Sequence record: OM386663.1
Direction: 5' to 3' (one strand)
From: Escherichia phage vB_EcoM_ESCO49
DNA length: 64,000 bases
Made by a program: the position numbers and the translations under genes. The stretch's first letter is position 1. Each line of letters begins with the position of its first letter. Below the pieces are notes generated by a model, which worked only from the letters and a program-made list of their open reading frames with translations, ran no database searches and had not been told where the DNA came from. Shown here in pieces: positions 2,526 to 12,973 of the stretch.

Positions 2526-2601
2526 TGGAGAATCCGAAGGGACTTGAACCCTTATAAACCTGTTTTGCAGACAGGCACATATCCATTTCTGTCACGGATT
2601 C
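2526..2601 (-). tRNA. tRNA-Cys (anticodon GCA)
   Basis: CCA encoded; perfect 7-bp acceptor (2530-2536 with 2595-2601); T-arm AAGGG/ACTTGAA/CCCTT; anticodon stem CCTGT/ACAGG, loop reads CUGCAAA. Confidence 0.75.
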
Positions 2602-2606
2602 GAAAT

Positions 2607-2697
2607 TGGGGGAAGATACCAGACTTGAACTGGTACACCGATTTCTCAGCTACTGGCAGTTTAGCAAACTGCTCCCTTACCTTTAGGGTTAATCTTC
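2607..2697 (-). tRNA. tRNA-Ser (anticodon GCU), type II
   Basis: Perfect acceptor (2611-2617 with 2691-2697); T-arm ACCAG/ACTTGAA/CTGGT; 21-nt variable arm; anticodon loop UUGCUAA. Confidence 0.7.
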
Positions 2698-2699
2698 CA

Positions 2700-3434
2700 T
2701 TATCTCTGTAATGCGCTCTTCATTTCTGGTGTTGCAATAGTATCAATCACACCAGTTTTACAAGCATCATCAAACCAGTCTGGTAAGATACCTGCTAAGA
2801 ACCCATTGATATTCGTTTTAAGGTACTCTGCAATAAGGGCAGCTTCTTCTTCAATCATCTGCACAACTTCATCTGCATAAGCTGTAATCTTTGAGATACC
2901 TTCATTAATCTTACTAACAGCCTGATTAGCTAAATCAGAAACAGTCTCAAGACCCTTATCAATAGCGTCTTGTAAGTCACTTAACACACCATTAACACTG
3001 TCTAGTGTGCTGTTAATCATGTCAATAGCTTGCTGACCATACTCTGTAGCAACACCCATAATACCACTAAATGGTGTACAACCAACTTGTTCTCCTGCTG
3101 CACCCATAACATTGGAGTATCCCTTTGCTACCTGCATACGTGATGAAAACTCATCAATAGACTTTTGACCGTAGTCTGTTAGGGTCTTAGTAGTTGCTGT
3201 AGTGCTTGTAAGGCTTGTTGTAAAGCTGTTTAGAAGGACTGTTGTGAGTCCAGCAGCAACAAGCTTCTCCTTCATTGTAGGGTCTGTTACAGAGCTAATA
3301 GAGCTTACAAGTGATGTAGAGGCAGCTACGGTTCCACCGAGAACTGCTGCACCAGTAATAAGTGGGTTAGAAAACCCTCTACCGGTTTTTAAGAGATTAA
3401 AAATCTCCTTACCTTGTTCTGTCATCTCTTTCAT
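2700..3434 (-). CDS. hypothetical protein (Ala/Ser/Thr/Gly-rich, about 244 aa)
   Basis: Track ORF 2700..3482 trimmed to the ATG at 3434..3432 because the upstream part overlaps a tRNA; low-complexity N-terminal half, helical C-terminal half. Confidence 0.4.
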   Translation of the reverse strand: MKEMTEQGKEIFNLLKTGRGFSNPLITGAAVLGGTVAASTSLVSSISSVTDPTMKEKLVAAGLTTVLLNSFTTSLTSTTATTKTLTDYGQKSIDEFSSRMQVAKGYSNVMGAAGEQVGCTPFSGIMGVATEYGQQAIDMINSTLDSVNGVLSDLQDAIDKGLETVSDLANQAVSKINEGISKITAYADEVVQMIEEEAALIAEYLKTNINGFLAGILPDWFDDACKTGVIDTIATPEMKSALQR

Positions 3435-3450
3435 TAAGCACCTTTGAAAT

Positions 3451-3521
3451 TGGTACTCCATATCGGATTCGAACCGATACATAACACAGATTTTAAGTCT
3501 GGCCTCTCTGCCAATTGGAGT
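3451..3521 (-). tRNA. compact tRNA, anticodon UAA (Leu by anticodon; atypical)
   Basis: CCA encoded; T-arm ATCGG/ATTCGAA/CCGAT; 6 of 7 acceptor pairs; short D-arm; 4-bp anticodon stem, loop CUUAAAA. Fold is non-canonical, so isotype is uncertain. Confidence 0.45.
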
Positions 3522-3531
3522 AATGGAGCAT

Positions 3532-3607
3532 TGGCTGGGGATGTTGGAATTGAACCAACTTCTTCGATTTCAAAGACCGAGGTTTTAACCTTGTAAACTA
3601 ATCCCCT
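3532..3607 (-). tRNA. tRNA-Gln (anticodon UUG)
   Basis: CCA encoded; T-arm GTTGG/AATTGAA/CCAAC; acceptor 3536-3542 with 3601-3607 (1:72 unpaired); anticodon loop CUUUGAA. Confidence 0.6.
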
Positions 3608-3615
3608 TTAAATCT

Positions 3616-4173
3616 TTACTTTCTCAGTGGATGAATAAAGAATGCCAACATAACTCTTTCCCTTGAGAATGCTCTTTCTTCTGGGACAACACTTTTTAGT
3701 TTCCATCCAATATAAATTCTCCAGTAAAACTGTTTACCAAAGATTTTAATTGATGGGATAAAAGCGAATAATCCCCAAGCATTGCTATTCCACATTAGGA
3801 GATAACCAGTCTGATTATCTTCAGGGTCAGAACTTACGCTGATATTACCTTTCCACTTAGTAACATCTTTTACATCTCTTCCTAATACATGGTAAGAGAA
3901 GTTATAAGCTTTGTTTCTCCAGAGCCATCCAACTCTCTGCATGTAGACACCCAGCTTACCAATCTTTCTAATCTTAGCCCATCTTTTAACGTGGCCTTCA
4001 TCACCATCAATCGGGTTGTCATAGGTCTCCATCCATCTGAATCCAAAAGGTAGATGCCCTTTCTTCTCACTGTAGAATGGAACCACGAAAGGTGCTAAGA
4101 TGACTGCTAGGGTTGCTGCAAATGGTTCTAGTAAAGCTAGGAAAATCCATGAAGCATACTTCAAATATCTCAT
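3616..4173 (-). CDS. hypothetical membrane protein embedded in the tRNA cluster
   Basis: 185-aa ORF with a hydrophobic N-terminal segment (WIFLALLEPFAATLAVILAPFVVPF); fills the gap between tRNAs without overlapping them. Confidence 0.35.
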   Translation of the reverse strand: MRYLKYASWIFLALLEPFAATLAVILAPFVVPFYSEKKGHLPFGFRWMETYDNPIDGDEGHVKRWAKIRKIGKLGVYMQRVGWLWRNKAYNFSYHVLGRDVKDVTKWKGNISVSSDPEDNQTGYLLMWNSNAWGLFAFIPSIKIFGKQFYWRIYIGWKLKSVVPEERAFSRERVMLAFFIHPLRK

Positions 4174-4192
4174 CTAAATAGCCTCTTAAAAT

Positions 4193-4270
4193 TGGTGTTC
4201 CAAGACGGATTCGAACCGTCACTAATACAAGGTTTGAGCTTGCATCCTCTGCCAATTGGGATACTGGAAC
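4193..4270 (-). tRNA. tRNA with anticodon CAA (Leu by anticodon; short variable arm)
   Basis: CCA encoded; T-arm GACGG/ATTCGAA/CCGTC; acceptor 4197-4203 with 4264-4270 (one G-U); anticodon stem 5 bp including G-U, loop CUCAAAC. Confidence 0.55.
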
Positions 4271-4271
4271 A

Positions 4272-4346
4272 TGGTACTCACTAAAGGACTTGAACCTTTT
4301 TCTTCATCTTGTAAGGGTGATGTTTTACCATATAAACTAAGCGAGT
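4272..4346 (-). tRNA. tRNA-Val (anticodon UAC)
   Basis: CCA encoded; T-arm AAAGG/ACTTGAA/CCTTT; acceptor with one mismatch; anticodon loop CUUACAA. Confidence 0.6.
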
Positions 4347-4441
4347 GTGAAAGAGGTCTGAAGTTGTGCCGCTAACTCAACTCCGTGGAATTTGTTACGG
4401 TCTTCAGTTGACACCAGCGGTCTTTCACTTGACCTCTGAAT

Positions 4442-4518
4442 TGGTGCTGCTCACAGGACTCGAACCTGCATTTCCATCCTTACAAGGGATGTGTAATAGC
4501 CAATTATACGAAAGCAGC
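4442..4518 (-). tRNA. tRNA-Thr (anticodon UGU)
   Basis: CCA encoded; T-loop ACTCGAA; perfect anticodon stem CATCC/GGATG, loop CUUGUAA; acceptor 6 bp plus G-U. Confidence 0.7.
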
Positions 4519-4524
4519 ATTATT

Positions 4525-4599
4525 TGGAGCATCCAGAGGGAATCGAACCCTCAACCTCAGTTTGGAAGACTGTAATTTTCCCGTTTAAACTATGGATGC
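4525..4599 (-). tRNA. tRNA-Gly (anticodon UCC)
   Basis: CCA encoded; perfect acceptor (4529-4535 with 4593-4599); T-arm GAGGG/AATCGAA/CCCTC; anticodon loop CUUCCAA. Confidence 0.7.
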
Positions 4600-4605
4600 A
4601 CTAAT

Positions 4606-4681
4606 TGGTGGAGAAGCAGGGAATTGAACCCTGTACTTAAGTTTGCAAAACTTATGTTTTAACCATGTAAACTACATCCCC
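4606..4681 (-). tRNA. tRNA-Ala (anticodon UGC)
   Basis: CCA encoded; T-arm CAGGG/AATTGAA/CCCTG; D-stem GUUU/AAAC; perfect anticodon stem UAAGU/ACUUA, loop UUUGCAA. Confidence 0.7.
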
Positions 4682-4687
4682 AATGTT

Positions 4688-4763
4688 TGGTACAGGTGGA
4701 GGGAATTGAACCCATCGTCTTACTGATTAAGAGTCAGCCGCATAACCATTTTGCTACACCTGC
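4688..4763 (-). tRNA. tRNA-Lys (anticodon CUU)
   Basis: CCA encoded; acceptor GCAGGUG/CACCUGU with G1-U72; T-loop UUCAAUU; anticodon stem GCUGA/UCAGU, loop CUCUUAA. Confidence 0.6.
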
Positions 4764-4770
4764 ATTAATT

Positions 4771-4847
4771 TGGTACACCTAGAGAGATTCGAACTCACAC
4801 TGAGCAGATTCTAAGTCTGCTGCCTCTACCAGTTGGGCTATAGGTGC
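4771..4847 (-). tRNA. tRNA with anticodon UAG (Leu by anticodon; short variable arm)
   Basis: CCA encoded; T-arm GAGAG/ATTCGAA/CTCAC; perfect anticodon stem GCAGA/TCTGC, loop CUUAGAA; canonical D-loop AACUGGUAG; 5-nt variable region. Confidence 0.6.
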
Positions 4848-5102
4848 ATTAAACCTTTTTAGAGAACTTCTAAGAACCTAAGCAACAAGGTTCCACAACA
4901 AGCCGTAATAACCTTAGAAGCCCTCTAAAAAGACCTAAAAAGGTCTTTGCATAGTCTTGTTTAATCCGGTGACTAGAACCTTTGGAGAGCTTGATATTAT
5001 CTCTTCTCCGTGACACCTGCTAGGTGCTTTATGAGTGTGTACGACAATACACGCGGGATACCAAAGCAACACCCTAATGAAGCTTGGCTTTAAATCTTAT
5101 TA

Positions 5103-5192
5103 GGCGGTAAGTAAAGGAGTCGAACCCTCACCGTATCTCTACAGTGGCAACTGTTTTCAAGACAGTTTGGCTACCATTAGCCGCTACCTACC
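5103..5192 (-). tRNA. tRNA-Ser (anticodon UGA), type II
   Basis: Acceptor GGUAGGU/ACUUACC; 3-bp D-stem; perfect anticodon stem ACUGU/ACAGU, loop CUUGAAA; about 20-nt variable arm; T-loop UUCGACU; 3' end CC without the final A. Confidence 0.65.
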
Positions 5193-5205
5193 CCTAATAA
5201 GACTT

Positions 5206-5288
5206 TGGCATGGGACGGAGGAGTTGAACCCCTTTGAAACGGTGTTGGAAGCCGTTGCTCATGCCTTAGAGTCTTAACATCGTCCCAT
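5206..5288 (-). tRNA. tRNA, probably Trp (anticodon CCA), 80 nt with enlarged D region
   Basis: CCA encoded; perfect acceptor (5210-5216 with 5282-5288); T-loop AGTTGAA; best anticodon loop UUCCAAC; D region is about 7 nt longer than canonical. Confidence 0.45.
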
Positions 5289-5431
5289 ACTATAATTCGA
5301 AGCTTACCGTATTATCTCAACACTGTAAAGCCCCTTCTCAGATTATTTACATGTTCTGGAAAACATGAGATACAGACCACCTCCCTACAGGAAGACCCGC
5401 TTAGGTCGTCTAAGTAATCTGCTAACTAAAT

Positions 5432-5518
5432 TGGTCGAGGCGGCAGGACTCGAACCCGCATACTCCACTTACTCGGTTAACGTCTGTTTAGAAGACAGAT
5501 GAGATACGCCCCGTAATT
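5432..5518 (-). tRNA. atypical tRNA-like gene (anticodon-type loop UCU; canonical D-arm not foldable)
   Basis: CCA encoded; good acceptor CGGGGCG/CGCCUCG and T-arm GCGGG/UUCGAGU/CCUGC; perfect hairpin UCUGU/ACAGA with loop CUUCUAA; only 7 nt where the D-arm should be and 23 nt between that hairpin and the T-arm. Confidence 0.4.
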
Positions 5519-5850
5519 ATCTTTAAAGACTCTCTTAGAAAGCCCTTAAAGATGCCCACCTTATTAATCATACCGTGGGCTAGTACGCCAAATTCTTTGA
5601 TGAGGGATTGGAAGACCTCACTGGTGTTTAGCCTATCAAGCTACTGCCAGAAAAACATTGTCGTTTGCATTTATTTTAAATTTGCAAAATAGACGCTACG
5701 CAACGAAAACTATTCAGAATATGTACAACAAATTTCCCCACATTGTGTTACGTCTAACGCTCATGTATTGGTGTTTGAATTATACATATTATGAAGTATT
5801 TTAGTTACTATAAAGTGGTCACATCTCAATGTCAACAACTTTATTGAAAT

Positions 5851-5926
5851 TGGTACTGGTAGGTGGAATCGAACCACCGACGTTCCCTTATCAGGGGAGT
5901 GTTATAACCTTCTTAACTATACCAGC
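5851..5926 (-). tRNA. tRNA-Ile (anticodon GAU)
   Basis: CCA encoded; perfect T-arm GGTGG/AATCGAA/CCACC; acceptor with G1-U72; anticodon loop CUGAUAA. Confidence 0.65.
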
Positions 5927-5927
5927 T

Positions 5928-6004
5928 TGGAGGTTCAGATGGGAATCGAACCCACATTCATAGGGCTTATGAGACCCTTGCATTACCTTATCTGCGACTG
6001 AACC
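5928..6004 (-). tRNA. tRNA-Met (anticodon CAU; elongator-type, or Ile2 if lysidinylated)
   Basis: CCA encoded; perfect acceptor (5932-5938 with 5998-6004); T-loop AATCGAA; anticodon stem AGGGU/GCCCU, loop CUCAUAA. Confidence 0.65.
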
Positions 6005-6008
6005 ATTT

Positions 6009-6084
6009 TGGTAGAAGTGGAGGGACTCGAACCCATCGCCTGTCAGATTAAAAGTCTGCCACATCACTATTCTGCTACACTTCC
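6009..6084 (-). tRNA. tRNA-Lys (anticodon UUU)
   Basis: CCA encoded; T-loop ACTCGAA; acceptor with G1-U72; anticodon loop CUUUUAA. Confidence 0.6.
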
Positions 6085-6278
6085 ATTAAATTATCTTTGT
6101 AGATAAGCTACCCAGACTTGCTTAAGGTCTGTAGCGATGTGACTTTTTGGGTTTAAATCTAGAATTTACCCTTTCACCCTTTGTGGTCGCATACTCACAG
6201 GTAAGCTTAATAACTTATCTACAAAGATAATTACCAGACCATTGTTTATCATCTTAACTAGATATCTCATAAAGTGTT

Positions 6279-6366
6279 TGGTGTGCCGTGTAGGAGTCGA
6301 ACCTACCGAGTCTCAATGACAAGGGATTTACAGTCCCCACCGCTACCATCTACGGGATAACGACAC
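6279..6366 (-). tRNA. tRNA-Tyr (anticodon GUA), type II
   Basis: CCA encoded; perfect T-arm GTAGG/AGTCGAA/CCTAC; 3-bp D-stem; anticodon stem GGGGA/UCCCU, loop CUGUAAA; about 15-nt variable arm. Confidence 0.6.
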
Positions 6367-6435
6367 ATCTAATTTCTATTCAGGCTAAGGACTTGCACCT
6401 TACAAATCGGTGAGTAATCGCTTCTCTCCTAAATT

Positions 6436-6512
6436 TGGCGGTTAGTCAGGGATTCGAACCCTGTGCCATTCGCTTAACAGGCGACCGCACATACCTTATG
6501 TGCTTCCTAACC
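6436..6512 (-). tRNA. tRNA-Asn (anticodon GUU)
   Basis: CCA encoded; perfect T-arm CAGGG/ATTCGAA/CCCTG; acceptor 6 bp; anticodon stem UCGC/GCGA, loop CUGUUAA. Confidence 0.6.
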
Positions 6513-6597
6513 ATGTTTAGTATTACCAGACCGTATCTTTCAATTTTTTCTGCTAAAAATTTAATAAATATTGCTGTAAACGGTCTTCTGTAAAATT

Positions 6598-6674
6598 TGG
6601 AGGCGGGTGCAGGAGTCGAACCTGCCGATACCATGCTAATGAGACATGTGAGACGCCCTTTCTCTATACCCGCA
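6598..6674 (-). tRNA. second CAU-anticodon tRNA (Met, fMet or Ile2)
   Basis: CCA encoded; perfect T-arm GCAGG/AGTCGAA/CCTGC; acceptor 6 bp with 1:72 unpaired; anticodon stem CAUGU/GCAUG, loop CUCAUUA. Confidence 0.6.
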
Positions 6675-6804
6675 ATTCTTAATGACCAGACCAAATCTCT
6701 TCTTTGTCCGATTTACCTTCAGATGAATAAGATTAAGTTTGCTGTAATTGGTCTTCTGTCAAAACTGGCGTTCCAGAAGGGATTTGTCTACTGGAACATT
6801 AATT

Positions 6805-6881
6805 TGGTCTCTGTTGGAGGACTTGAACCTCCGGCCTTACCGCCCCAAACGGAACGCTCTACCAAGCTGAGCTAAACAGAG
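6805..6881 (-). tRNA. tRNA-Pro (anticodon UGG)
   Basis: CCA encoded; perfect acceptor (6809-6815 with 6875-6881); perfect T-arm GGAGG/ACTTGAA/CCTCC; anticodon loop UUUGGGG. Confidence 0.65.
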
Positions 6882-10131: not shown

Positions 10132-10160
10132 TAGGGGCTAATGCCCCTTTAACTATTTAT
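10132..10160 (+). terminator. putative rho-independent terminator
   Basis: Hairpin AGGGGC-TAAT-GCCCCT followed by a T-rich tract. Confidence 0.4.
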
Positions 10161-10171
10161 AAGGGTATTTA

Positions 10172-10546
10172 ATGCAAGCTAAGAGTGCAAAAGACTTTTA
10201 TTGCTTCCTACAAACCTATATCAATTCCGTGCAAAATGGTGAAAGGTACAACCTTAATGATGTTATCCCAACACCTTTGACATGGAGGCTTGATAAATGG
10301 CCTGAAGTAGAAATTACACCAACAAGCGAACAGTGTACCTACAATCCTGAAATCAATCTTCCAGACTCTGAGAATCTATTATATCCAATGTTCCATATTG
10401 TTGGTCTTGGAAGATTTCTTATGGATATCCAGTATGTAATTGGTAAAGATTATAAGGTTAAAGGTATTGTTGTTGGTGATGTATCTCCGCATCACAAAGG
10501 TTATTTTAGACTAAACGCACATTTAGAGGCTAAAAGAAATGATTAA
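10172..10546 (+). CDS. hypothetical protein, paralogous to the N-terminal domain of the next gene
   Basis: 124 aa; shares a conserved block with the 10539..11672 product (FLMDIQYVIGKDYKV versus FFMDLQYAIINDKDV). Confidence 0.5.
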   Translation: MQAKSAKDFYCFLQTYINSVQNGERYNLNDVIPTPLTWRLDKWPEVEITPTSEQCTYNPEINLPDSENLLYPMFHIVGLGRFLMDIQYVIGKDYKVKGIVVGDVSPHHKGYFRLNAHLEAKRND

Positions 10547-11672
10547 AGCAAAGACTTACCCAGACTTCAAAGAGTTTGTGAATGGCTTCGTTGCAAATGT
10601 AAAGGCTGGTAAGAGATATGATTTTAGAACATATCAGGAGGCTATTTTACCGCTTACCTATAGTTCATATTGGCCTGAAGCTGATATTGCAGAAGTTGAG
10701 GAGTTTGACTACGAGCCAGACTACAAAGTTCCATTTAGTGATGAGTTGCTTTACAGCATCGGTGCTCAAATGAGGACTTCTGACTTCTTCATGGACTTAC
10801 AATATGCAATTATCAATGATAAAGACGTTGATACGGTTTATTGTGAATGGTTGGCAAGAGTTAAACCATTCTCAATGCTGAATGCTAAGTTGAAGGATGC
10901 TATCAAGCCACCAGTAATCACTCAGCAGCCAACTAATCAAACAGTAAATGAAGGTGGTACACTTACCCTAAGTGTTGTTGCAACGAATGCTACTGGATAT
11001 CAATGGAAAAAGGATGGTGAGGATATCACTAGTGCCACATCTGCAACCTACACCAAAGAAAGTGCAACCACTGCTGATGCTGGTTCTTATACTTGTGTTG
11101 TGTCTGGAGAGGCTGGTACAAGTGTTACCTCAGATGCGGCAACAGTCACTGTCAACGCACTGCCTGTGATTACACAGCAACCTTCTAGCCAGACCATCAA
11201 TGAGGGTGGAAACATCAGCTTGGAAGTGACTGCAACAGGTGCAACAGGCTATCAGTGGAAGAAAGATGGTTCTGACATTCCTTCGGCTACAGAGGCCACC
11301 TATAGCAAGTCTGGTGCGCTTCCAGCAGATGCAGGTTCATATACTTGCGTTGTAACAGGTGCAGGTGGTTCTGTGGAATCTGATGCTGCAACAGTTACTG
11401 TGAACGCACTTCCAGTAATTACTCAACAGCCAACCAATCAAGAAATCACTGAAGGTGATACCTTAACGCTGAGTGTTGAGGCAACTGGTGCAACAGGTTA
11501 CCAGTGGAAGAAAGGTGAGGAAGACATCCTCGATGCAACTGCTGCAACTTACACCAAAGAAGATGCAACCGCTGCTGATGCAGGAAGCTACACCTGTGTA
11601 GTTACTGGTGCAGGTGGCTCTGTAACATCTGATGCAGCAACAGTTACAGTTAACCCAGCAGGGGAGGCATAA
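10539..11672 (+). CDS. protein with three tandem Ig-like repeats
   Basis: 377 aa; three near-identical about 82-aa repeats (PVITQQP(T/S)NQ...ATGYQWKKDG...AGSYTCVV(T/S)G...DAATVTVN) typical of an Ig I-set-like fold. Confidence 0.6.
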   Translation: MIKAKTYPDFKEFVNGFVANVKAGKRYDFRTYQEAILPLTYSSYWPEADIAEVEEFDYEPDYKVPFSDELLYSIGAQMRTSDFFMDLQYAIINDKDVDTVYCEWLARVKPFSMLNAKLKDAIKPPVITQQPTNQTVNEGGTLTLSVVATNATGYQWKKDGEDITSATSATYTKESATTADAGSYTCVVSGEAGTSVTSDAATVTVNALPVITQQPSSQTINEGGNISLEVTATGATGYQWKKDGSDIPSATEATYSKSGALPADAGSYTCVVTGAGGSVESDAATVTVNALPVITQQPTNQEITEGDTLTLSVEATGATGYQWKKGEEDILDATAATYTKEDATAADAGSYTCVVTGAGGSVTSDAATVTVNPAGEA

Positions 11673-12136
11673 TGCAACTCTCAAGAAAAGGCTTAGAAGC
11701 TATTAAGTTCTTTGAAGGTCTTAAGCTAGAGGCTTACGAAGATTCTGCTGGAATCCCTACAATTGGGTACGGAACAATCCGTATTTCTGGCAAACCTGTT
11801 AAGATGGGTATGAAGATTACCGCTGAACAAGCTGAACAGTATCTTCTTGCAGATGTTGAAAAGTTCGTTGCAGCAGTGAACAAAGCCATCAAGGTTCCAA
11901 CTTCTCAGAATGAGTTTGACGCACTTGTAAGTGAAACATACAACATTGGCATCACAGCTATGCAGGATTCCACATTTATCAAGCGCCACAATGCTGGTAA
12001 TAAGGTCGGTTGTGCAGAAGCTATGCAGTGGTGGAACAAGGTTACAGTCAAAGGTAAGAAGGTCACTTCAAACGGACTGAAAAACAGACGTAGAATGGAA
12101 GCTGACATTTATCTTGACAGTGTATACCCAAAGTAA
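11672..12136 (+). CDS. lysozyme, glycoside hydrolase family 24 (endolysin)
   Basis: 154 aa; GH24 signature FEGLKLEAYEDSAGIPTIGYGT with the catalytic Glu context, as in T4 E and lambda R. Confidence 0.75.
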   Translation: MQLSRKGLEAIKFFEGLKLEAYEDSAGIPTIGYGTIRISGKPVKMGMKITAEQAEQYLLADVEKFVAAVNKAIKVPTSQNEFDALVSETYNIGITAMQDSTFIKRHNAGNKVGCAEAMQWWNKVTVKGKKVTSNGLKNRRRMEADIYLDSVYPK

Positions 12137-12145
12137 TATCTTCAT

Positions 12146-12172
12146 AGGCTCCTTCGGGAGCCTTTTTATTTT
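12146..12172 (+). terminator. rho-independent terminator after the lysozyme gene
   Basis: Hairpin AGGCTCC-TTCG-GGAGCCT followed by TTTTTATTTT. Confidence 0.6.
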
Positions 12173-12186
12173 CTAAGGAGAAAACT

Positions 12187-12585
12187 ATGAAACTTTGGGC
12201 TAGTGACTTTGGAACTTTTAAGTACACTCGTGATGGTTCAATGGTGAGGATTATTGGCAGCCAGATTGTAGTAAGTGGTGATGAGGTTTGTACAAAGTTC
12301 ACTGTAGAGTTAGCTGAACTATCACCTATTACCCGTGCTAAGAATGGGTTTTTCAGGTTCGAGATTTACAAAGTAGATGAGTGCGGTCGGTTCAACCCTC
12401 TTGGAGAGAGTGGATTAGATATTATTTCTGAACACCCATTGACAGCAGAGCAATTGTCAGGTTATTATAAAACTCTACTTGAAAGAGAGTTAGCAACCCA
12501 CGAGTGTGAAGCAAAATATCACATAGAGCGTTGTGAAACACTCAAAGAAAAGATAAAACTAGCAGAGAGAGGTTTTTATGAATAA
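12187..12585 (+). CDS. hypothetical protein
   Basis: 132-aa ORF with AGGAGA RBS, co-oriented with neighbours. Confidence 0.45.
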   Translation: MKLWASDFGTFKYTRDGSMVRIIGSQIVVSGDEVCTKFTVELAELSPITRAKNGFFRFEIYKVDECGRFNPLGESGLDIISEHPLTAEQLSGYYKTLLERELATHECEAKYHIERCETLKEKIKLAERGFYE

Positions 12586-12973
12586 TAACAGTCATATTCA
12601 CGTTAAAGTTGATGTCAGCCGTTACAGCGAAAATGAGGAACTAGACCTGCAAGATGCTATTCTATTTGAGAAGAATGGTAATCTCCATCTGCACTTCGAA
12701 GGTACAAACACATATCTCCACAGATGTCGAGATGATGCAGATGGTTGCCCTGTTTTTGCTTGGTATAATTTAGAGTTCCCTCTTTACGCAATCCACTACC
12801 CAGATGGTGGAGAAGACTGGACAACTCAGTCAATTTTTGATGAGCTTAACGGTGTTCCGGTTGAGCAAGAAGAGCAAGAGCCTGTTGAACTGACCTTCAC
12901 CTTCGTCAAAGAAGAAACGGTTGGTGATTTGTCTGTAACTGAAGCAATTCAAGTCACACAGGTTATTCGTTAA
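12578..12973 (+). CDS. hypothetical protein
   Basis: 131-aa ORF; start overlaps the upstream stop. Confidence 0.45.
   Translation: MNNNSHIHVKVDVSRYSENEELDLQDAILFEKNGNLHLHFEGTNTYLHRCRDDADGCPVFAWYNLEFPLYAIHYPDGGEDWTTQSIFDELNGVPVEQEEQEPVELTFTFVKEETVGDLSVTEAIQVTQVIR

What the first reader, a model, noticed from the sequence alone, without database searches (positions are those of the whole stretch)
10172..12136. Triple Ig-like-repeat protein sharing its N-domain with the upstream gene, fused in an operon with a GH24 lysozyme
The 377-aa product has three near-identical about 82-aa Ig-like repeats after an N-terminal domain that is paralogous to the whole upstream 124-aa protein; its stop overlaps the lysozyme start (ATGCAACTC at 11672). 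Ig-like repeats are usually capsid- or tail-decoration domains, so pairing with a lysozyme suggests a surface-binding or cell-wall-targeting module. Alternatively the lysozyme is the endolysin and the Ig protein is unrelated.
Basis: partly seen in the sequence, partly recalled or inferred. Interest (0 to 1): 0.45.

Follow-up and report, generated by a model that had tools for sequence, protein, structure and literature searches.

The report
Known capsid decoration gene beside endolysin
The triple-Ig protein is the already solved Hoc-like capsid decoration protein of Felix O1-type phages and the lysozyme next to it is their ordinary soluble endolysin; the only undescribed detail is a small, dispensable upstream copy of the capsid-binding domain.

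Summary
The window is a Felixounavirus genome, 98.8% identical to Escherichia phage ESCO50 across this region. Three overlapping + strand genes sit between two conserved terminator hairpins. They encode a 124-aa protein, a 377-aa protein with an N-terminal domain and three I-set Ig repeats, and a 154-aa GH24 lysozyme. The repeats are 70-78% identical, so "near-identical" is too strong.

The 377-aa protein is a known protein. It matches the hexamer decoration protein solved by cryo-EM on the capsids of Bas63 (PDB 9NCF chain S, "Hex-Dec") and Sf14 (9C2D chain S, gp20). Its Felix O1 homologue gp36 was found in virions by mass spectrometry. The common "tail protein" annotation is a legacy error.

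The lysozyme differs at only four positions (about 97% identity) from LysF1 (7M5I), a soluble T4-lysozyme-like endolysin with no signal sequence. No evidence links the two proteins into a cell-wall-targeting module. They share a late cassette that is conserved across Ounavirinae.

The 124-aa protein is a real stand-alone paralogue of the capsid-binding domain (E 4e-14, dN/dS 0.13). It lacks both capsid-contacting arginines, is missing from Kolesnikvirus, and is a pseudogene in the SP116 lineage. Its function is unknown, and I found no paper that describes it.

The parts
10133..10148 (+). Terminator-like hairpin (AGGGGC-TAAT-GCCCCT) just upstream of the cassette. It corresponds to terminator t38 of Felix O1.
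   Evidence: Folds at -13.5 kcal/mol, z = -3.3. The stem is conserved across Felixounavirus, Mooglevirus and Suspvirus loci while the loop varies. Listed as t38 in Whichard 2010, Table 2.
10172..10546 (+). 124-aa stand-alone paralogue of the Hex-Dec capsid-binding domain (phrog_4463; equivalent to Felix O1 gp37 and Sf14 FDI99_gp021). Function unknown.
   Evidence: BLASTP E 4e-14 against the next gene. phmmer E 1e-8 against PDB 9C2D_S and 9NCF_S. phrog_4463 E 3e-75. dN/dS 0.13. The two arginines that anchor Sf14 gp20 to the capsid are replaced: Arg79 by an invariant Gly and Arg107 by His or Gln.
10539..10913 (+). Capsid-binding domain (CapBD, residues 1 to about 125) of the Hex-Dec / Hoc-like hexamer decoration protein.
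   Evidence: Residues 1-299 align almost identically to Bas63 Hex-Dec 9NCF_S, and residues 1-371 align to Sf14 gp20 9C2D_S. Arg79 and Arg107 are present. dN/dS 0.05.
10914..11165 (+). Ig-like (I-set) repeat 1. Orthologous to R1 of the four-repeat form.
   Evidence: Pfam Ig_3/I-set. Boundaries. 89% identical to pinkbiff R1.
11166..11414 (+). Ig-like (I-set) repeat 2. Orthologous to R2 of the four-repeat form.
   Evidence: 95% identical to pinkbiff R2.
11415..11672 (+). Ig-like (I-set) repeat 3 plus the stop codon. Orthologous to the terminal repeat R4 of the four-repeat form, so the internal R3 is absent here.
   Evidence: 90% identical to pinkbiff R4. The split alignment to 9NCF_S shows one extra internal repeat in Bas63.
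11672..12136 (+). GH24 T4-lysozyme-like soluble endolysin (equivalent to Felix O1 gp35/LysO1 and FAHEc1 LysF1).
   Evidence: PF00959 E 6.7e-41. 7M5I E 6.9e-98, near-identical over 154 aa. Glu15-x8-Asp24-x5-Thr30 triad present and no hydrophobic N-terminus.
12146..12173 (+). Intrinsic terminator (GGCTCC-TTCG-GGAGCC followed by a T-run) closing the cassette. It corresponds to terminator t35 of Felix O1.
   Evidence: Terminator scan. Folds at -12.9 kcal/mol, z = -4.1. Conserved in all loci inspected. Listed in Whichard 2010, Table 2.

Best explanation
This is the conserved late accessory cassette of an Ounavirinae (Felix O1-like) myophage. It holds three translationally coupled genes bounded by two terminator hairpins.

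The 377-aa product is the Hex-Dec / Hoc-like decoration protein. In the homologues whose structures are solved, the N-terminal capsid-binding domain plugs as a monomer into the centre of the 60 pentamer-proximal hexamers of the T=9 capsid. Arg79 and Arg107 form salt bridges to an Asp of the major capsid protein. The string of I-set Ig domains projects outward. I infer, by analogy with T4 Hoc, that these domains give weak adhesion to glycans, mucus or cell surfaces, or control aggregation of particles.

The 154-aa product is the phage's soluble endolysin. It accumulates in the cytoplasm and reaches the murein only after a separately encoded holin acts. It has no physical or functional link to the Ig protein beyond shared late expression.

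The 124-aa product arose by duplication of the capsid-binding domain. It has lost both capsid-anchoring arginines, is kept under purifying selection and is not needed for viability. I infer that it is a non-virion or sub-stoichiometric accessory factor, possibly acting in head assembly or Hex-Dec loading. Its mechanism is not shown.
For: Taxon: 98.8% nucleotide identity to Felixounavirus ESCO50; 238 related phage records.

Hex-Dec:
- PDB 9NCF_S (E 8.5e-266) and 9C2D_S/9C3A (E 2.5e-168) match the 377-aa protein.
- The Sf14 and Bas63 cryo-EM papers place the homologue at hexamer centres, give the Arg79/Arg107-Asp221 contacts, report detection in particles by mass spectrometry, and describe 1-4 predicted Ig domains across the genus.
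- Felix O1 gp36 was detected in virions with 44% coverage.
- Length classes of 210, 294, 377 and 461 aa occur in the 29 complete cassettes (28 related loci plus this window). The window protein carries repeats R1, R2 and R4.

Endolysin:
- 7M5I matches at E 6.9e-98.
- LysF1 biochemistry shows a monomer with no SAR region that acts only on outer-membrane-permeabilised cells.
- The catalytic triad is present and the N-terminus is not hydrophobic.

Cassette:
- Gene overlaps are as described and both hairpins fold well.
- The order 196-aa gene, paralogue, Hex-Dec, lysozyme, 132-aa gene is kept in every complete locus examined.
- Hex-Dec and the endolysin are also adjacent in Kolesnikvirus phiEa104 and in Sf14.
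- By RT-PCR, Felix O1 ORFs 36 and 37 peak late.

Paralogue:
- Homology is supported, and dN/dS is 0.13.
- It is absent from Kolesnikvirus.
- It carries an internal deletion and has lost its start codon in SP116, REP5-12, mio, Z31 and others, about 19 records in all.
Against: - Nothing was measured on this particular phage. Virion location and enzyme activity are carried over from homologues (near-identical for Bas63 Hex-Dec and LysF1, more diverged for Sf14 gp20).
- The biological role of the Ig domains is untested in any Ounavirinae; both cryo-EM papers say so.
- Felix O1 RT-PCR put ORF35 (lysin) in the 25-min class and ORFs 36 and 37 in the 60-min class. A single co-regulated transcript is therefore not proven. 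No promoter is conserved in the ~25 nt between the upstream hairpin and the first ATG.
- For the paralogue there is no direct evidence of what it binds. Its absence from the virion rests on a stringent mass-spectrometry list (at least 25% coverage) and on maps in which hexamers on icosahedral threefold axes are symmetry-averaged.
Confidence: 0.9

Rival explanations
1. One reading: the Ig-repeat protein and the lysozyme work together as a surface-binding or cell-wall-targeting module, for example a virion-associated lysin with an Ig targeting partner.
For: The two genes overlap by 1 nt and are adjacent in all four Ounavirinae genera examined. Ig-like domains can bind carbohydrates.
Against: The Ig protein's N-domain is a capsid-binding domain solved on the capsid. 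The two genes are separate ORFs with a stop codon between them. LysF1 is a free monomeric endolysin with no targeting domain or signal sequence. Felix O1 gp35 is not in the virion proteome list, whereas gp36 is.
Confidence: 0.03
2. The database annotation: the 377-aa protein is a (major) tail protein.
For: GenBank records call it 'major tail protein' or 'tail protein'. phrog_3995 is labelled 'tail protein' and there are PHROG hits to major tail proteins. Whichard 2010 named gp36 the major tail protein.
Against: The PHROG hits to tail proteins cover only the Ig region, from about residue 96 to 295. Two independent cryo-EM structures model the N-domain at capsid hexamer centres and identify other genes as the tube and sheath.
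Confidence: 0.02
3. The 124-aa paralogue is itself a capsid-binding protein: an Ig-less 'blank' cap. It would either occupy the 20 threefold hexamers (or the pentamers) that Hex-Dec leaves free, or compete with Hex-Dec to tune how many Ig fibres are displayed.
For: It is homologous to the CapBD over its full length. It is expressed late together with gp36 in Felix O1. It is under purifying selection. Hex-Dec is excluded from threefold hexamers because of altered Asp221 geometry, and the paralogue has different residues at exactly the two anchoring positions. Monomer density on an icosahedral threefold axis would be smeared by symmetry averaging.
Against: Both cryo-EM studies report no density on the other hexamers, and Sf14 encodes an intact paralogue. 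gp37 is not in the Felix O1 virion list. The gene is absent from Kolesnikvirus and is a pseudogene in about 19 viable isolates.
Confidence: 0.1
4. The 124-aa gene is a functionless duplicate in slow decay.
For: It has been lost twice: it is absent from Kolesnikvirus and is deleted in the SP116 lineage. It evolves about 2.7 times faster at non-synonymous sites than the CapBD.
Against: dN/dS is 0.13 over 393 pairs, at a median pairwise dS of 0.70. The ORF is intact at 120-124 aa in all but three of the 50 homologous protein clusters recovered. Blocks unique to the family are strongly conserved, for example LLYPMFHIVGLG and GYFRLNA. A roughly 48%-identical stand-alone copy occurs in a more distant uncultured relative.
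Confidence: 0.08

Closest known systems
Bas63 Hex-Dec (PDB 9NCF chain S) and Sf14 gp20 (PDB 9C2D/9C3A chain S): the Ounavirinae hexamer decoration protein
   Same: It has the same N-terminal capsid-binding domain, near-identical to Bas63 over residues 1-299, with Arg79 and Arg107 present. It has the same I-set Ig repeats. It occupies the same genomic position, more than 10 kb from the structural module and directly upstream of the endolysin.
   Different: Only the repeat number differs: three here (R1, R2, R4), four in Bas63 and three in Sf14.
[quoted passage not shown]
   Same: It is a monomer at hexamer centres with a string of I-set Ig domains projecting from the capsid and an acidic surface. 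The presumed role is adhesion or aggregation. PHROG 'Hoc-like' families hit the Ig region.
   Different: The domain order is reversed: the CapBD is N-terminal here and C-terminal in Hoc. The CapBD is larger, topologically distinct and pseudo-C2 symmetric, with no sequence similarity to Hoc's. It binds only 60 of the 80 hexamers.
FAHEc1 LysF1 (PDB 7M5I) and Felix O1 gp35/LysO1: GH24 T4L-like endolysins
   Same: The sequence is near-identical. It has the Glu15/Asp24/Thr30 triad and no SAR or signal region.
   Different: Nothing of note.
Kolesnikvirus (phiEa104/phiEa21-4) gp038
   Same: It has a homologous CapBD and lies directly upstream of the endolysin.
   Different: It displays a single Big_2 domain instead of I-set repeats. 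No stand-alone CapBD paralogue lies upstream.

Membership tests
Ounavirinae Hex-Dec / Sf14 gp20 hexamer decoration protein | N-terminal capsid-binding domain homologous to the solved chains | tested here: met
   phmmer E 8.5e-266 against 9NCF_S and 2.5e-168 against 9C2D_S, aligned from residue 1.
Ounavirinae Hex-Dec / Sf14 gp20 hexamer decoration protein | Arg79 and Arg107, which form salt bridges to Asp221 of the major capsid protein | tested here: met
   Both arginines are present at positions 79 and 107 of the 377-aa protein (sequence; contacts described).
Ounavirinae Hex-Dec / Sf14 gp20 hexamer decoration protein | One to four C-terminal Ig-like domains | tested here: met
   Three Ig_3/I-set stretches. 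Length classes of 210, 294, 377 and 461 aa in relatives.
Ounavirinae Hex-Dec / Sf14 gp20 hexamer decoration protein | Physically located at the centres of pentamer-proximal hexamers in the virion | not testable with these tools
   Shown by cryo-EM for Bas63 and Sf14, and by mass spectrometry for Felix O1 and Sf14. Not shown for this isolate.
T4 Hoc family | Hoc-type C-terminal capsid-binding domain with N-terminal Ig domains | tested here: not met
   The Ig domains are C-terminal here. The PHROG Hoc-like hits cover only residues ~120-289. The Bas63 paper reports reversed order and a distinct CapBD topology. It works like Hoc but is not a member.
Phage major tail (tube) protein | Tail-tube fold outside any Ig decoration domain | tested here: not met
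   Hits to tail-protein PHROGs are confined to the Ig region. The N-domain is the capsid-binding domain.
GH24 T4-lysozyme-like endolysin (canonical, holin-dependent) | PF00959 domain with the Glu-x8-Asp/Cys-x5-Thr catalytic triad | tested here: met
   PF00959 E 6.7e-41. Motif at residues 15-30.
GH24 T4-lysozyme-like endolysin (canonical, holin-dependent) | No signal peptide or signal-arrest-release N-terminal extension | tested here: met
   The catalytic Glu is at residue 15. The highest 19-aa Kyte-Doolittle window is 0.81 and lies internally. LysF1 was shown to lack a SAR helix.
GH24 T4-lysozyme-like endolysin (canonical, holin-dependent) | Muralytic activity on outer-membrane-permeabilised cells | not testable with these tools
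   Shown for the near-identical LysF1.
Virion-associated lysin or cell-wall-targeting fusion | Lysin domain covalently joined to, or co-assembled with, a virion or binding protein | tested here: not met
   The ORFs are separated by a TAA stop. Felix O1 gp35 is absent from the virion mass-spectrometry list.
Stand-alone CapBD paralogue (phrog_4463) as a capsid binder of the Hex-Dec type | Retains the capsid-anchoring Arg79 and Arg107 | tested here: not met
   Gly (invariant) and His/Gln occupy the aligned positions in all 16 paralogues in alignment A1.
Stand-alone CapBD paralogue (phrog_4463) as a capsid binder of the Hex-Dec type | Presence in purified virions | not testable with these tools
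   gp37 is not in the Felix O1 list. No unassigned hexamer density is reported for Sf14 or Bas63.

The most novel reading that the evidence does not exclude
The stand-alone CapBD paralogue (10172-10546) is an unrecognised third capsid-interacting protein of Felixouna-, Moogle- and Suspviruses. It could be an Ig-less cap for the hexamers or pentamers that Hex-Dec cannot bind. It could instead be a transient factor that controls where and when Hex-Dec loads onto the T=9 shell. Its altered residues at the two anchoring positions would retarget it to the differently shaped threefold hexamer.
Probability: 0.1. Interest if true: 0.4.

Novelty: already known. Interest (0 to 1): 0.15.

Why it matters
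The main features matter little, because they are already in the literature and the PDB (Sf14 2025, Bas63 2025, LysF1 2021, Felix O1 2010).

Practical value: the widespread 'major tail protein' or 'tail protein' label on this gene is wrong and should read 'hexamer decoration protein'. The gene is also a natural, length-variable display scaffold (1-4 Ig modules, or Big_2 in Kolesnikvirus).

The small open point is the conserved but dispensable CapBD-only paralogue, which neither structural paper mentions. If it touches the capsid, it would bear on how decoration proteins tell quasi-equivalent hexamers apart.

Tried and rejected
- AlphaFold2 on the 124-aa paralogue, using a 17-sequence alignment, gave a poor model (mean pLDDT 56.5, pTM 0.57). 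Foldseek against the PDB returned nothing below E 0.5 and did not recover 9NCF or 9C2D. This says nothing either way. The Sf14 authors also note that AlphaFold mispredicts this capsid-binding domain. Homology therefore rests on sequence.
- Tandem Repeats Finder missed the Ig repeats, whose DNA is only 68-73% identical.
- The sigma-70 promoter scan found no excess of sites (8 found against 9.9 expected) and none in front of the cassette. The short spacer after the upstream hairpin carries no motif conserved between genera. I rejected a T4-like late promoter reading of 'TATTTATAA' because Mooglevirus and Suspvirus lack it.
- I looked for virion proteomics of the paralogue. The VpaE1 list is in a figure that is not held. 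The wV8 paper covers only the tail fibre.
- I could not locate the Bas63 genome record in the phage collection to confirm that its paralogue is intact. I used Sf14 instead.
- A profile search of 1.84 billion representative proteins found only 9 family members, so no distant functional clue is available.
Full report
**What is there**

The window carries three + strand ORFs. They are 10172-10546 (124 aa), 10539-11672 (377 aa) and 11672-12136 (154 aa). The first pair overlaps by ATGATTAA and the second pair by TAATG.

A hairpin at 10133-10148 precedes the genes (-13.5 kcal/mol, z = -3.3). A classic intrinsic terminator at 12146-12173 follows them (-12.9 kcal/mol, z = -4.1).

Pfam finds three Ig_3/I-set stretches in the 377-aa protein and PF00959 in the 154-aa protein. 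It finds nothing in the 124-aa protein.

The three Ig repeats are 83-85 aa long. They are 70-78% identical in protein and 68-73% in DNA, so they are clearly related but not near-identical. Tandem Repeats Finder does not see them.

The 124-aa protein matches the N-terminal ~120 residues of the 377-aa protein at 32% identity, E 4e-14. A multiple alignment extends the match to both C-termini.

**What the window is**

The region is 98.8% identical to Escherichia phage vB_EcoM_ESCO50. It matches 238 phage records, nearly all of them Felixounavirus (Ounavirinae).

The cassette lies at the start of a + strand block that diverges from the block holding the tRNA array and the terminase. This matches Felix O1 ORFs 37-36-35.

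**The Ig protein is a solved capsid decoration protein**

A search of PDB sequences returns three chains:
- 9NCF chain S, 'Immunoglobulin-like domain protein', 460 aa, E 8.5e-266.
- 9C2D and 9C3A chain S, 'Tail protein', 372 aa, E 2.5e-168.

9C2D and 9C3A come from the Shigella phage Sf14 capsid (PMC11821841). 9NCF comes from the Felixounavirus Bas63 (PMC12609058).

Both papers show that the N-terminal domain binds as a monomer at the centre of the pentamer-proximal hexamers of a T=9 capsid. The Ig domains extend outward and are disordered in the maps. In Sf14, Arg79 and Arg107 bridge to Asp221 of the capsid protein, and the protein was detected in particles by mass spectrometry.

The Bas63 paper names the protein Hex-Dec. 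It notes that the gene lies more than 10 kb outside the structural module. It reports a pseudo-C2-symmetric capsid-binding domain (CapBD) and 1-4 predicted Ig domains across the genus. It proposes Hoc-like functions but states that role and essentiality are unknown.

The window protein carries Arg79 and Arg107.

Felix O1 gp36, the 294-aa homologue, was found in CsCl-purified virions at 44% coverage and was then named 'major tail protein'. That naming is the source of the 'tail protein' label that still spreads through GenBank and PHROGs. The PHROG hits to tail proteins and to Hoc-like families cover only the Ig region.

**The lysozyme is the ordinary endolysin**

It differs at only four positions (about 97% identity) over all 154 residues from PDB 7M5I (E 6.9e-98). 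7M5I is LysF1 of the Felix O1-like phage FAHEc1.

LysF1 is a monomeric T4-lysozyme-like enzyme with the Glu15/Asp24/Thr30 triad and no signal-arrest-release region. It lyses E. coli only after the outer membrane is permeabilised.

The window protein has the same triad and no hydrophobic N-terminus. Felix O1 gp35 is not among the virion proteins. The holin candidate lies elsewhere: a 185-aa ORF inside the tRNA array is annotated as holin in ESCO50. Whichard et al. likewise noted that Felix O1 has no holin-lysin cassette.

Nothing supports a cell-wall-targeting partnership between the Ig protein and the lysozyme.

**Why the genes sit together**

The order 196-aa gene, paralogue, Hex-Dec, lysozyme, 132-aa gene is identical in all 29 complete cassettes compared: 28 loci from phage records and IMG/VR contigs, plus this window.

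Hex-Dec and the endolysin are also adjacent in Sf14 (Mooglevirus) and in phiEa104 (Kolesnikvirus).

Both flanking hairpins are conserved across genera, and their loops vary. They correspond to terminators t38 and t35 of Felix O1.

By RT-PCR in Felix O1, ORFs 36 and 37 peak at 60 min, alongside portal and tail-fibre genes. ORFs 35 and 38 peak at 25 min.

The simplest reading is an ancestral late accessory cassette. No promoter is evident, so single-transcript status remains inferred.

**Variation in repeat number**

Hex-Dec falls into length classes of 210/211, 294/298, 377 and 461 aa, which correspond to 1-4 Ig modules.

Compared with the four-repeat pinkbiff protein, the window's repeats are orthologous to R1, R2 and R4. 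Most two-repeat Felixounavirus forms, Felix O1 among them, are R1 plus R4. Change therefore happens by in-register gain or loss of internal modules.

In Kolesnikvirus the same CapBD carries a single Big_2 domain instead.

**The paralogue**

Neither cryo-EM paper mentions a second CapBD-like gene. A full-text search found no paper that does.

The gene is clearly real:
- It has a dedicated PHROG family (phrog_4463, E 3e-75).
- 50 homologous protein clusters were recovered, all but three of them 120-124 aa long.
- dN/dS is 0.13. For comparison it is 0.05 for the CapBD and 0.08 for the lysozyme.
- It has its own invariant blocks, for example LLYPMFHIVGLG and GYFRLNA.

It differs from the CapBD at the positions that matter for capsid binding. 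Arg79 is an invariant Gly and Arg107 is His or Gln in all 16 paralogues aligned. It is also less acidic than the CapBD (pI 6.1 against 4.7).

The whole CapBD superfamily is very small. Only nine representatives at 50% identity were found among 1.84 billion proteins. One of them is a divergent stand-alone 122-aa form.

The paralogue is absent from Kolesnikvirus. It is a pseudogene in a Felixounavirus lineage, where the start codon is lost and about 180 nt are deleted internally. About 19 records from several countries and hosts share this deletion junction, among them SP116, P54, Z31, mio, REP5-12, Tf and fBSPA4. The gene is therefore dispensable for plaque formation.

Three further facts argue against a structural role. 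gp37 is absent from the Felix O1 virion list. No density is reported on Hex-Dec-free hexamers. Sf14 encodes an intact copy.

Together these favour a non-virion or sub-stoichiometric accessory role. A capsid-binding role is not excluded, because threefold hexamers are symmetry-averaged in the maps and the mass-spectrometry list was stringent. I put that at about 0.1.

**Dead ends**

The AlphaFold2 model of the paralogue was poor (pLDDT 56.5) and Foldseek found nothing. The Sf14 authors report the same difficulty for this domain.

**Verdict**

This is an ordinary, already described locus: the Felixounavirus Hex-Dec capsid decoration gene next to the canonical endolysin. Its headline hypothesis is not supported. 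The only undescribed element is the conserved, dispensable CapBD-only paralogue.

Noticed in passing
L032:2306-2497 (Salmonella phage SP116); same junction in L034 (REP6): The 124-aa paralogue is a pseudogene here. Its ATG is lost and about 180 nt are deleted internally. The same junction (93.5-100% identity, single piece) occurs in about 19 phage records from different countries and hosts.
   Followed up: yes
L031:2501-3115 (Erwinia phage phiEa104 gp038): Kolesnikvirus keeps the same capsid-binding domain next to its endolysin, but displays one Big_2 domain instead of I-set repeats and has no upstream paralogue. This looks like a swap of the display domain on a conserved anchor.
   Followed up: partly
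window 12578-12973 (+): This 131-aa ORF is annotated 'D-alanyl-D-alanine carboxypeptidase' in ESCO50, pinkbiff and many other relatives. It has no Pfam hit at E <= 0.01, so the label looks like an unsupported propagated annotation.
   Followed up: partly
window 2526-6881 (- strand); ORF 3616-4173 (-): There is an array of 19 tRNA genes. A 185-aa ORF with a hydrophobic N-terminus is embedded in it and is annotated as holin in ESCO50. The lysis genes are therefore dispersed: the endolysin is about 7.5 kb away on the other strand.
   Followed up: no
window 10914-11669 (Ig repeats): The best non-phage PDB match of the Ig repeats is the 5898-aa grappling-hook protein GhpA of Aureispira (9FLP; E 3.9e-102, 17 stretches). 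It scores far above the animal Ig proteins, which fits exchange with bacterial surface-protein repeats.
   Followed up: no
P0052 (209-aa cluster representative); compare the window out-of-frame ORF 10972-11169: One Hex-Dec cluster representative reads normally to the middle of Ig repeat 1. It then continues in the +1 frame (…WKRMVRISLVPPLQPTQ…), matching the window's out-of-frame ORF. This is a frameshifted, Ig-less variant or a sequencing error in some genome.
   Followed up: no
window 10914-11669: DNA identity between the repeats (68-73%) is no higher than protein identity (70-78%). The repeats therefore carry many synonymous differences, which would limit homologous recombination between them. 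Whether this has been selected is untested.
   Followed up: no
L015:~3960-3985 compared with window 10133-10148: In one IMG/VR relative the upstream hairpin stem reads GGGGGGT…ACCCC instead of GGGGC…GCCCC. Pairing is kept, which supports a conserved RNA structure.
   Followed up: no
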